Of a DNA stretch of 61,742 bases, positions 6,001 through 9,000 are shown piece after piece. The position numbers are program-made. The first letter of the stretch is position 1; every line of letters starts with the position of its first letter. The DNA comes from a virus (Duplodnaviria > Heunggongvirae > Uroviricota > Caudoviricetes), in IMG/VR virus record IMGVR_UViG_646311924_000011; one strand, given 5' to 3'.

Positions 6001-9000
6001 AATCAGAATGGGATGGAATCGTCGTATACAGGGGTGTTCTGCTGGTTACTACTTTGCTGCTGCGGGCCATTTCCTGAAGCTGCAAATCCAATCTTTGCAT
6101 TCAGTAATTCAAGAGTGATTGATTGACCATTTTGCCCCTGATAAACATCAACCCTGATGTTTTCTCCGGTAATTTCTACAATGCCACCTTCAACAAGAAC
6201 ACTACGGTAGTAATCCGCTTGCGCTCCCGGCTTGGCAAATACAACGGCGTTGTAGTTTGTCCATTCTTTCTTTTTTGTCTGGCGATCGTAATACTGAACG
6301 CCAGCACGGATGTTGAATCCGATATTTTCCCCGGCCTGAAACTCTCTTGCGGGCTTGTTTAGTCTTACAGTAATCGAATGTGCCATTAAGCAGCCGCTCC
6401 TTCTAATTCGTCTCGTCTGATGTTGTAAACGTCCTGCGCTTTGTGCTGCTCCGGTGTGCCTTCGAGCATCTTCCACGCTTTGGCGAACGCCTGTTTAAGC
6501 TCTTCTACGGTGTTTTTCTGCAATGCTGCGTCAGTGAATGCTTTTAGAACCTGTTCAGGTGTAGGTGATGGTTTTGATTGCTTTGCTGCTGCGTTCTGCT
6601 GATGTTTATGCTCGTCTGTATCTGCATCTTTCGCATCATCAATGCCGAACAAACCATTGAGGCAATACTTGCGTGCATAAGAGCTTGTAGCTCCCGTAAC
6701 TTGTGCAGAATCCATTCCTTTCTTGCTTTCTTCCTCTCGTGCAAGAGCGGTTGCCGTATGACTGTTTTCGCCATCGGTAATAGTTGCCGTGGCTTTCACG
6801 TAATACCGATTACCAATCAACACAACTTCATCGCTGATTGATAAAAACAGACCATTCAGTAACGGCTTAACGCCTTCAAGAATGTCTTCGCAGCTTCTGT
6901 ATTTATATTTACCGAATGAGTTGTACTGATTCTTGGGCGCGTTCAGATTTTCCTGAATAGCTGCCAGTCTTGCGTAAAATTCTTTGCTCATATGATTGTT
7001 CTCAGAATGGACATGGCCCAAGGAAATAACGCTGATTTAATACTTCAGTCTTTGCCGCATTTAAAAATACGCGAACACCTTCACGATCTCCCTTCTGGCG
7101 ATACATTAACGCCTGCTGCGTGTACATGCGTCTCTGTAACTTGCTCTCCTTCACGGTGGTTGCAAGTGACATGAATATCTCCTTCGTTACCGATTAATTC
7201 TTTCATCTGACGAATGAATTCTTCGTCTGACCAGTTATCTGTAAAACTCATGGGCGGCCTTGTTGTTTCAAAATATCCCAAAGCTTTTCGAGCAAGCTTT
7301 TCATTCTTGGTTGTTTAAAGTCTGCTCCGGTTAAAATATTTTTTCGTGAATGCTGTACCGATAAAATCGGGTTGAAAGGGCGAACCGATGCCGCCCCTGC
7401 AATAGCGAACTGTTGCATAGGATGCTCCTTCTGTTTGATTGCATAACGAAAACGCCTCGAGTGAAGCGTTATTGGTATGCATATAAAAAGGCCCTCACAC
7501 TGGAGGGCAAAGAAGATTTCCAATAATCAGAACAAGTCGGCTCCTGTTTAGTTACGAGCGACATTGCTCCGTGTATTCACTCGTTGGAATGAATACACAG
7601 TGCTTATTCGTACTAATAAAACACCCAATTTTCTGTTTCTTGGTTGTGTCCAAAGTTATATTCAATATCTGGTATTGATGTATCAATATTCTTCATCCCA
7701 TCAACAAGAGTTGATACAACAGCCAAATCTTGTTTGATTCTCATTAAATGGTACTTCTTCCGGCGCAATAAACTTTCAATGGCAAGTTTCTTCGTCGGGA
7801 ATGCAAAAGATCTTTCGGCATTTTTTGCTACTTTCTTAATTGCATATCTATTTCTCCTTTGTTTCCATTCCTGTAACCACTGATTTGGTGCTGGTTTAAA
7901 ATTAACAATCCAATGCGCAGGAACCAACCATGCATAATGATCTGTCTGATGAAAAGCTATATATTGAAGTGCGAATATTTTTATCCCATCTTCTTCAACT
8001 GTCGCCTGGAATCTCCAGAAAACAGGCATTCCATCATGTTCAGTTTCTGATTCAGGAAAAGGTACGCTCCATGATTTTGTCATATCTCACCTCAAATAAG
8101 TGGTTTGCTGCCTAATTTCATTTTCTGGCGACCAACACAAGTCACCTCGCCGTCAGTTGTTTTGATTTCCGGTAGCCTGCCGCGTAAATGGCTACGTTTG
8201 GAAGACATACACCAGTTTCTGGTTGCTTATGTCCAAACTCATTCGCGTACACAATGGCCGCTCGCTCCAGATTGCGTCTGTATTCTTTCTGTTGCCAGAT
8301 CACGTCCTGTGCCATGAACTTAATTGGCTTAGCGTCTTCTATGCGCTCAGGCGTTTCGTGAGTACCTTTAGCCTGAATCTGCGCTCTGCTTAGAGTAGGG
8401 CGGTGTAATACTTCTGAACTTATTGCTTCTTCGCGGGCCAGTACGCCGTTAGCTAATGCCTTTGCCTTTAAACGCTCACGACGACGAGAACGTGAATTGC
8501 CTTTGAACTGAGTTCTGCGTGTCATATAGACCTCCTGATGAACTTTGGTGGTGTGGTAGGTGGGAGACCCATTTCGACCTGTTTCGGCCTACTTCAATTC
8601 GGCAATAGTCCCGCAGGCCTCGCCGCTTTACGTGCGACATATTCCCGTCCATGAACCCTTCACCACACCCCAAAGTTCACTTTGGTTATTGCGCTTTGTC
8701 AGCGCCGTAGATTCATATTCGAATCGTTGTATATTCACCGCCCTGGTGAGTAATGCGTCCTGCTGACGACGATAATAATGAACCAATAGTTCGACATTAT
8801 CAAGAACTATTGGTACGAATTTTGGTGATTTATTAACTCTACGAAGTATGATTCTGATATATAAGGAAATTTATTTTTGAAAATGTGGCTGATGAAGGTT
8901 ATGCGGCAGGGATCATAACTGCATGGTTTAGCGAGTTACATCAATAAATACAATTGGTTATGTTTTTTAGGTGGGCGAACGTGAGGCAAAGAAAACCCGG

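What the first reader, a model, noticed from the sequence alone, without database searches (positions are those of the whole stretch)
8539..8679. Long-range 19-bp inverted repeat enclosing the N leader and RBS
TGAACTTTGGTGGTGTGGT (8539-8557) and its near-perfect complement CACCACACCCCAAAGTTCA (8661-8679) can form a long stem in the leftward transcript just upstream of the N start and SD. In lambda a large RNase III-processed stem in the N leader controls N translation, and this looks like the analogous element.
Basis: partly seen in the sequence, partly recalled or inferred. Interest (0 to 1): 0.45.

Follow-up and report, generated by a model that had tools for sequence, protein, structure and literature searches.

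The report
Lambda-type N-leader hairpin in 933W
The inverted repeat is real and forms the 20-base-pair foot of a large RNA hairpin between the antitermination site nutL and the start of the phage N gene; it is the phage 933W copy of the hairpin that RNase III cuts in phage lambda to control N production, so it is well supported but of a known kind.

Summary
The window is a 933W-type Shiga-toxin phage. In the leftward pL transcript the two arms form 11 bp, one bulged A, then 9 bp (G8680-G8661 with U8538-U8558). Nothing comparable arises in 100 shuffles. The helix does not enclose the RBS. It ends 2 nt upstream of the SD, nutL lies just 5' of it, and it encloses a 102-nt interior.

The same helix, with the core CUUUGG-GGUGUG / CACACC-A-CCAAAG, the bulge and the same position, is present in lambda's own N leader, and also in phi80, P22, H-19B and HK97-type phages. 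Across 34 distinct arm pairs, 87% of cells pair against 36-44% in slid registers, and 15 of 23 pairs change on both sides. Wobble pairs place the selection on the leftward RNA.

About 20 unrelated interiors are swapped within this constant helix among at least 10 first-gene families.

Best reading: it is the homologue of lambda's RNase III-sensitive N-leader hairpin, which couples nutL to N translation. The structure and homology are shown here. Cleavage and regulation in 933W are inferred. Verdict: a new member of a known kind, of modest interest.

The parts
8775..8803 (-). pL-like promoter (-35 TTGATA 8803-8798, -10 CATTAT 8780-8775), overlapping the operator palindrome ACCAATAGTTC/GAACTATTGGT (8782-8814)
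   Evidence: Consensus scan and palindrome I3. Position agrees with the pL annotated in the HK106 record. Inferred, not mapped.
8767..8767 (-). Inferred 5' end of the leftward (pL) transcript, taken as +1. The N AUG is then +243.
   Evidence: HK106 record marks the homologous base as the '5' nt of sequence similar to lambda pL transcript'. The GUCAGCAGGACGCA start resembles lambda's AUCAGCAGGACGCA.
8691..8757 (-). nutL: boxA CGCAUUACU 8757-8749, spacer dyad GAUUC-GAAUAU-GAAUC 8725-8710, boxB GCGCUGACAAAGCGC 8705-8691
   Evidence: Annotated nutL in the 933W record (record 9614-9680 = window 8691-8757). boxA and boxB as annotated in HK106. boxB is identical to P22's.
8670..8685 (-). Small local hairpin CCAAAG-UGAA-CUUUGG. 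Its 3' strand is also the outer 5' arm of the long helix, so the two structures are mutually exclusive.
   Evidence: Predicted in the nascent RNA and in a 5' cleavage product. Present in nearly all N-leader families with different sequences. 93% paired, with 2 pairs changed on both sides.
8661..8680 (-). 5' arm of the long helix: outer GUGAACUUUGG 8680-8670, inner GGUGUGGUG 8669-8661 (GU-rich, boxC-like)
8559..8660 (-). 102-nt interior ('933W-type cassette'), predicted to be multibranched with four small hairpins
   Evidence: RNAalifold on 17 variants; only one interior pair covaries. Found at 91-97% identity in phi80, Louie and VT2phi_272 between unrelated flanks. No Rfam or tRNA match.
8538..8558 (-). 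3' arm of the long helix: inner UACCACACC 8558-8550, bulged A8549, outer CCAAAGUUCAU 8548-8538
   Evidence: The arm is unique in the window.
8523..8536 (-). N translation initiation region: SD AGGAGG 8536-8531, AUG 8525-8523
   Evidence: Sequence. N ORF 8142..8525, 127 aa, annotated as N in 933W.

Best explanation
The repeat is the basal helix (11 bp, one bulged purine, then about 9 bp, roughly two helical turns) of a large hairpin in the pL leader RNA. It lies between nutL and the N ribosome-binding site and is homologous to the RNase III-sensitive hairpin of the lambda N leader. Proposed mechanism: as the leader is transcribed, the GU-rich 5' strand just after boxB is first held in a small local hairpin. 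When the 3' strand emerges about 130 nt later, the long helix forms. This places the nutL-bound N/Nus complex next to the SD, 2 nt from the helix foot, so that N can repress its own translation and the helix hinders ribosome access. RNase III cuts the helix, separates nutL from the N coding RNA, and relieves that repression, so N synthesis tracks RNase III activity. Shown here: the helix, its position, its homology to lambda, and its selection as an RNA structure on the leftward strand. Inferred: cleavage by RNase III and the effect on N translation in 933W.
For: The helix is real and non-random. Lambda has the same order and the same helix core with the same bulged A. P22 gene 24, phi80 N, H-19B and many uncultured phages have it too. 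Arms-only alignment of 34 distinct rows: 87.2% of cells paired against 36-44% for registers slid by 1-3; 15 of 23 pairs have changes on both sides (86 cells against 13-24 when slid); 0 of 500 shuffles reach the observed values; pairing collapses after inner pair 9, so the conserved helix is about 20 bp. Twelve unrelated interiors in the 933W-N family each continue the helix with their own 7-11 bp of complementary sequence. Strand: 96.6% paired in sense against 87.1% in antisense, with 69 G.U cells against 4 A.C cells. Of 124 copies of the 933W-type cassette, 121 have at most 2 unpaired helix positions out of 20. Literature: N and Nus factors bound at NutL repress N translation, and the sequence between NutL and the SD is highly structured (PMC5725501, citing Wilson 1997 and 2002). 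The lambda N leader is an RNase III target (PMC5371410, citing Steege 1987). E. coli RNase III substrates typically have two helical turns, and bulges can restrict cleavage (PMC1540722).
Against: There are no cleavage or expression data for 933W or H-19B, and I found no paper in the held library that addresses them. The primary lambda papers could not be read, so the cleavage positions come only from my memory. The pairs flanking the presumed cut are G-C, and G-C next to the scissile bond can act as a catalytic antideterminant in a model substrate. However, lambda has the identical pairs there. From memory, H-19B-type N has different host-factor needs from lambda N (it is independent of NusB and S10), so autoregulation need not carry over. 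Selection for the helix fits any function that needs the helix, not RNase III specifically.
Confidence: 0.75

Rival explanations
1. Scaffold only. The helix is selected because it folds the leader, juxtaposing the nutL complex with the RBS or insulating boxB and the RBS from the variable interior, and RNase III cleavage plays no significant part in 933W.
For: Covariation supports the helix, not the enzyme. In rrn operons the leader-trailer helix is needed for 30S biogenesis independently of RNase III (PMC10250234). G-C pairs flank the presumed cut.
Against: The helix core is identical to lambda's where, according to the literature, RNase III processes the leader. The conserved length of about two turns fits an RNase III substrate.
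Confidence: 0.15
2. Cassette holder. The constant helix mainly serves as a processing signal that excises the variable interior as a separate small RNA with its own function; control of N is secondary.
For: About 20 unrelated interiors (hairpin span 55-216 nt) are exchanged among at least 10 first-gene families inside the same helix. One interior type scores as a tRNA above Rfam's gathering threshold (39.6 bits against 29). The 933W-type interior stays at 91-97% identity between unrelated flanks.
Against: The 933W interior matches no RNA family, has only one covarying internal pair, and varies at 55 of its 103 non-helix sites across 31 distinct copies. Mosaic exchange at conserved arms would give the same pattern without any function.
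Confidence: 0.08
3. The arms are the terminal inverted repeats of a small mobile insertion (MITE-like), or merely a recombination junction, with no RNA function.
For: The stretch bounded by the repeat occurs between non-homologous flanks in different phages.
Against: All 122 occurrences with complete flanks lie in one context, after a boxB-like hairpin and before an SD-ATG. No target-site duplication flanks the arms. The arms are unique in the window. Compensatory changes and the G.U over A.C asymmetry point to selection on the leftward RNA, not on DNA.
Confidence: 0.02
4. A transcription terminator or pause hairpin (a tL0-like signal) upstream of N.
For: It is a very stable hairpin in an antiterminated operon.
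Against: No U-run follows the helix (UCAGGAGGUC), and the terminator scan finds nothing there. The hairpin spans 143 nt, far larger than intrinsic terminators.
Confidence: 0.02

Closest known systems
RNase III-sensitive hairpin of the phage lambda N leader (Steege et al. 1987; Kameyama et al. 1991; Wilson et al. 1997, 2002; cited through PMC5371410 and PMC5725501, otherwise from my own knowledge)
   Same: Same position (nutL, then the hairpin, then the N RBS). Same helix core CUUUGG-GGUGUG / CACACC-A-CCAAAG, with one bulged A between an outer and an inner helix. Same small competing hairpin upstream. Similar distances (5' arm at +88 in 933W and +81 in lambda; AUG at +243 and +223).
   Different: The interior is unrelated (102 nt in 933W, about 90 nt in lambda). 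The distal outer pairs differ (UGAAC/GUUCA against GGC/GCU). The helix foot is 2 nt from the SD in 933W and about 7 nt in lambda. The N protein and boxB are of the H-19B/P22 type. No processing data exist for 933W.
rrn leader-trailer helix with boxC (the RNase III site flanking 16S rRNA)
   Same: A nut-like element (boxA/boxB) is followed by a GU-rich 5' strand (rrn boxC UCUGUGUGGG; here GGUGUGGUG). That strand pairs over a long distance with a 3' strand to form an RNase III substrate. In the proposed 'delivery' model the antitermination complex holds the 5' strand until the 3' strand emerges (PMC10250234; PMC8632103).
   Different: The rrn loop holds 16S rRNA (1.5 kb) whereas the phage loop holds 40-200 nt. 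The box order differs (boxB-boxA-boxC in rrn, boxA-boxB then the arm here). The output here would be control of N translation rather than ribosome assembly. This is a resemblance in mechanism, not membership.
Dyad symmetry in the H-19B nut-site spacer (Neely and Friedman 2000; from my own knowledge)
   Same: Same phage group and same leader; also an inverted repeat affecting NUT RNA folding.
   Different: That dyad lies between boxA and boxB (here GAUUC-GAAUAU-GAAUC, 8725-8710). It is short and local and concerns antitermination. The repeat in this finding lies 3' of boxB and spans 143 nt.
Other RNase III regulatory sites (lambda cIII and sib, T7 R1.1)
   Same: An approximately two-turn dsRNA with an internal loop or bulge in a phage early transcript.
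   Different: Those are compact local hairpins, with no nut site tethered on one side and no RBS on the other.

Membership tests
Lambdoid N-leader RNase III-sensitive hairpin | Lies in the pL leader between nutL and the N ribosome-binding site | tested here: met
   boxB 8705-8691, helix 8680-8538, SD 8536-8531, AUG 8525
Lambdoid N-leader RNase III-sensitive hairpin | Sequence homology of the helix base to lambda's | tested here: met
   Shared CUUUGGGGUGUG / CACACC-A-CCAAAG with the same bulge. Louie has lambda's nutL and N with the 933W-type hairpin between them.
Lambdoid N-leader RNase III-sensitive hairpin | Long-range helix of about two turns maintained as RNA structure | tested here: met
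   20 bp plus a bulge; 87% paired against 36-44% when slid; 15 of 23 pairs with double-sided changes; G.U asymmetry
Lambdoid N-leader RNase III-sensitive hairpin | Cleaved by RNase III in vivo or in vitro | not testable with these tools
   Needs rnc+ versus rnc- end mapping or an in vitro digest. No report found.
Lambdoid N-leader RNase III-sensitive hairpin | The helix or its cleavage modulates N translation (N autoregulation through NUTL) | not testable with these tools
   Known for lambda. Needs N-lacZ fusions for 933W.
E. coli RNase III substrate | Permissive proximal and distal box base pairs around the scissile bonds | not tested
   The box rules need the exact cut site and the tables of PMC1540722. 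Only the length rule was applied. The pairs at the presumed site are identical to lambda's.
Intrinsic terminator | GC-rich hairpin followed by a U-run | tested here: not met
   No U-run after 8538, and no hit in the scan
MITE-like mobile element | Terminal inverted repeats with target-site duplication, at many unrelated sites | tested here: not met
   122 of 122 occurrences in the same leader context; no flanking duplication
tRNA, tmRNA or any Rfam family | Match to a covariance model or to ARAGORN | tested here: not met
   Best Rfam E-value is 3. ARAGORN finds only the three tRNAs at 20197-20446.

The most novel reading that the evidence does not exclude
The constant helix is a general-purpose processing and exchange socket in lambdoid early-left leaders. 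It accepts unrelated RNA cassettes (about 20 types, one of them tRNA-like) that RNase III would release as separate RNAs. The small hairpin just after boxB, which competes with the outer helix, is a conserved second state: after cleavage it would become a 3'-terminal cap protecting the polymerase-tethered NUT RNA. Neither the cassette system nor the two-state arm turned up in the papers I could search.
Probability: 0.15. Interest if true: 0.6.

Novelty: new member of a known kind. Interest (0 to 1): 0.35.

Why it matters
N is the first gene expressed on induction of a Shiga-toxin prophage, and N-dependent antitermination is needed to reach Q and hence stx expression. If the 933W leader is processed as lambda's is, host RNase III activity, which according to the lambda literature varies with growth rate, would set how much N is made. 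It would therefore influence how readily induction proceeds to toxin and phage release. The comparative result also gives a clean natural mutagenesis data set for the lambda element. It shows which parts are constrained: about 20 bp, one bulged purine, and the UUGG-G / C-N-CCAA core. It also shows which parts are free: the whole interior.

Tried and rejected
- Rfam search of 8400-8900 found nothing (best E = 3). ARAGORN finds no tRNA there.
- Mobile-element reading: rejected because the context is constant and the arm is unique in the window.
- Terminator reading: rejected.
- SD sequestration by the repeat itself: rejected, because the SD lies outside the helix. The full-leader fold pairs parts of the SD and AUG with the transcript's 5' end, but I did not find this convincing or conserved.
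- Reading the primary lambda papers (Wilson 1997 and 2002, Steege 1987, Plunkett 1999, Casjens and Hendrix 2015, Bubunenko 2013, Parks 2014): none are held. All ten literature searches returned no paper on N-leader processing in 933W or H-19B.
- My recollection that lambda is cut near +88/+89 and +197/+198 fits the outer/inner junction and a 2-nt 3' overhang (coordinates). It is unverified and is not used as evidence.
- A proximal/distal-box analysis was not attempted, for lack of a verified cut site.
- The first version of the local-hairpin alignment (A3) had two mistyped rows and was redone (A4).

Full report
**Identity of the window.** The region 8100-9200 is 100% identical to phage 933W (AF125520), Stx2 converting phage I and many other Stx phages. 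Window coordinate = 933W record coordinate minus 923. The 127-aa ORF at 8142..8525 on the minus strand is annotated as antiterminator N. The 933W record annotates nutL at 9614-9680, which is window 8691-8757, and nothing between nutL and N.

**The observation.** The two quoted 19-mers are at the quoted coordinates. They are complementary only if one base is bulged: the repeat finder returns a perfect 10-mer pair and an offset 13-mer pair. In the leftward RNA the helix runs as follows:
- 11 outer pairs: G8680-G8670 with U8538-C8548.
- Bulged A8549.
- 9 inner pairs: G8669-G8661 with C8550-U8558.

Such a 10 + 8 repeat with at most a 1-nt bulge occurs once in the window and in none of 100 dinucleotide shuffles. 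A plain 10-mer inverted repeat is common (34 observed, 13 expected). The 201-nt region folds with z = -3.1. In the full 278-nt leader the helix pairs have probability 0.86-1.0 except the last G.U at 0.31. The basal duplex alone is worth -31 kcal/mol.

**Anatomy on the leftward RNA**:
- pL-like promoter at 8803-8775.
- Inferred 5' end at 8767.
- boxA CGCAUUACU at 8757-8749.
- Spacer dyad at 8725-8710.
- boxB GCGCUGACAAAGCGC at 8705-8691.
- Small hairpin CCAAAG-UGAA-CUUUGG at 8685-8670.
- Long-helix 5' arm at 8680-8661.
- 102-nt interior.
- 3' arm at 8558-8538.
- SD AGGAGG at 8536-8531.
- AUG at 8525.

The repeat therefore encloses neither nutL nor the RBS. It sits between them, with its foot 2 nt from the SD.

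**Relatives with a different interior.** A sensitive BLAST of 8500-8790 gave two kinds of partial match.
- H-19B, Salmonella phages Oslo, epsilon34 and SI8, and an Enterobacter phage share the N gene, nutL and the outer arms, but have unrelated interiors. In each one the helix continues into the new interior with its own complementary sequence after the same bulge: GGUGAAUGCAG/CUGUAUUCACC, GAUGCGAUG/CAUCGCAUC, GAUUGAAUG/CAUCCAAUC and GAAAGCG/CGCUUUC.
- phi80, VT2phi_272 and Louie match only window 8543-8675, which is the interior plus inner arms, at 91-97%. In each it lies between a nutL and an N-type start that are unrelated to those of 933W.

**Homology to lambda.** Louie has lambda's nutL and lambda's N (MDAQTRRRERR). 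Lambda itself reads boxB-AGCAUUCAAAGCAGAAGGCUUUGG-GGUGUGUG...CACACACC-A-CCAAAGCU-AACUGAC-AGGAG-AAUCCAG-AUG and folds the same way. The 933W repeat therefore shares the core CUUUGGGGUGUG / CACACC-A-CCAAAG, the bulged A and the position with lambda's leader hairpin. P22 gene 24 has the same design, GGUUUGG-ACUGGCG...CGCCAGU-A-CCAAAGCC.

- The 933W-N family alone has 12 unrelated interior types, each with 7-11 contiguous inner pairs.
- The lambda-N family carries several of the same cassettes.
- A generic search recovered 250 leaders with about 20 interior types (hairpin span 55-216 nt) distributed over at least 10 first-gene families. The bulge was A in about 90% and G in about 10%. That search required a 1-nt bulge, so it cannot show that the bulge is universal.
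- All 122 occurrences of the 933W-type interior with complete flanks lie after a boxB-like hairpin and before an SD-ATG.

**Test of the helix.** I built an arms-only, fixed-register alignment of 34 distinct rows, which stayed ungapped.
- 87.2% of cells are paired, against 36-44% when the 3' partner is slid by 1-3 columns.
- 15 of 23 pairs have changes on both sides (86 cells, against 13-24 when slid).
- 0 of 500 shuffles reach the observed paired fraction, double-change cells or covariation score.
- Inner pairs show up to four pair types (for example UA 19, GC 8, AU 4, CG 3).
- Pairing collapses beyond the ninth inner pair, so the conserved unit is about 20 bp plus one bulge.
- Pairing is 96.6% in the leftward sense against 87.1% in antisense, with 69 G.U cells against 4 A.C cells. 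Selection therefore acts on the leftward RNA.
- Of 124 copies of the 933W-type cassette, 121 have at most 2 unpaired helix positions out of 20. The three exceptions look rearranged.

**The interior.** RNAalifold on 17 variants keeps the basal helix and predicts a multibranch with four small hairpins. Only one interior pair covaries (U-A to C-G at columns 66/101). There is no Rfam or tRNA match. I treat the interior fold as a prediction.

**Mechanism.**
- Established for lambda, cited indirectly: N and Nus factors bound to NutL repress N translation, and the sequence between NutL and the SD is highly structured (PMC5725501, citing Wilson 1997 and 2002). The N leader is an RNase III target (PMC5371410, citing Steege 1987).
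- From my own knowledge of Wilson et al. 2002: the lambda leader contains, in order, NUTL, an RNase III-sensitive hairpin and the N RBS. Cleavage does not impair antitermination but abolishes N autorepression.
- E. coli RNase III substrates typically have two helical turns, and bulges can restrict cleavage (PMC1540722).
- The 933W helix fits in length, position and sequence, so the most likely reading is that it works as lambda's does.
- By alignment to lambda, and using cut positions I recall but could not verify, the cuts would fall at 8670|8669 and 8547|8546.
- Cleavage and regulatory effect in 933W are inferences.

**Related architecture.** In rrn operons a GU-rich boxC downstream of boxA forms the 5' strand of the RNase III-cleaved leader-trailer helix. 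The antitermination complex is proposed to deliver it to the trailer (PMC10250234; PMC8632103). The phage leader has the same logic on a small scale.

**Rivals.**
- A scaffold-only role cannot be excluded, because covariation supports the helix, not the enzyme.
- A cassette-release role is possible but unsupported for the 933W interior.
- The mobile-element, recombination-junction-only and terminator readings are contradicted.

**Novelty.** The element is unannotated in the 933W record, and I found no paper on it in the held library. It is nevertheless a homologue of a classic lambda element, and older subscription literature may already note its conservation in other lambdoid phages. I rate it a new member of a known kind. 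The cassette-like interior and the competing local hairpin are the parts that might be new.

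Noticed in passing
L099 5715-5841 (+); same cassette in L061 and L112: In some phages with a 933W-type N, the hairpin interior scores as a tRNA above Rfam's gathering threshold (RF00005, 39.6 bits against 29, E = 3.4e-7). The acceptor, D and T arms match, and a 70-nt insert replaces the anticodon arm. Its acceptor stem is the inner helix of the conserved hairpin. ARAGORN does not call it.
   Followed up: partly
window 8670-8685 (-); lambda L010 about 496-513 (-); P22 L252 about 1290-1309 (-): A small hairpin just after boxB (CCAAAG-UGAA-CUUUGG) uses the outer 5' arm and so competes with the long helix. It recurs in lambda (CAAAGC/GCUUUG), P22 (CCAAAC/GUUUGG), L256 (CCGAAG/CUUCGG) and L112 (CCAAAGCA/UGUUUUGG). 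93% of cells are paired and 2 pairs change on both sides, but I chose the 5' strands from folds. It would become the 3'-terminal hairpin of the nut RNA after a cut at the outer/inner junction.
   Followed up: partly
L003 (VT2phi_272, NC_028656) about 880-1330 (-); also PA8 and several Stx2a phages: These phages keep a phi80-like nutL and the 933W-type hairpin, but no N gene is annotated and no SD-ATG follows the 3' arm. The sequence runs into a terminator-like GCGCCAGCGTCTTTTTTT. It looks like an N-deleted early-left leader.
   Followed up: no
L055 about 6400-6630 (+): One 933W-N-type leader has, in place of the large hairpin, a small ORF with its own RBS (MFEVICNPILGSMIFTFAICFGFTIWSEVSDWMWDRKNK) followed by a short local hairpin UUUGGUGGUGG...CCACCACCAAAG directly before the N SD. 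L255-type phages have a similar NPILG small hydrophobic ORF as the first gene after the hairpin.
   Followed up: no
L010 (NC_001416) 38-439; L004 1197-1331; L008 565-774: Likely annotation artefacts inside the hairpin. The lambda RefSeq N CDS starts at 35438, inside the hairpin interior, rather than at the SD-preceded AUG at 35360. Louie_CDS0041 and an Enterobacter phage 'hypothetical protein' are called across the hairpin.
   Followed up: no
window 8761-8767 (-); lambda, H-19B, P22 and HK106 leaders: The first bases of the pL transcript (R-UCAGCAGGACGC) are conserved across phages whose promoters, operators and N genes differ. In the 933W full-leader fold this 5' end pairs weakly with the SD/AUG region.
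   Followed up: no
window 8782-8814 and 8994-9015: A perfect 11-bp palindrome ACCAATAGTTC/GAACTATTGGT overlaps the pL hexamers and is presumably the OL operator pair. A bidirectional terminator-like hairpin lies at the site annotated tM in 933W.
   Followed up: no
L066 about 1100-1350 (-): A recombinant leader with a phi80-type 5' outer arm (GGAAUGUUUUGG) and a 933W-type 3' outer arm (CCAAAGUUCAUC). Only the invariant UUUGG/CCAAA core and the inner helix still pair, and no local hairpin forms. This suggests crossovers happen inside the hairpin.
   Followed up: no
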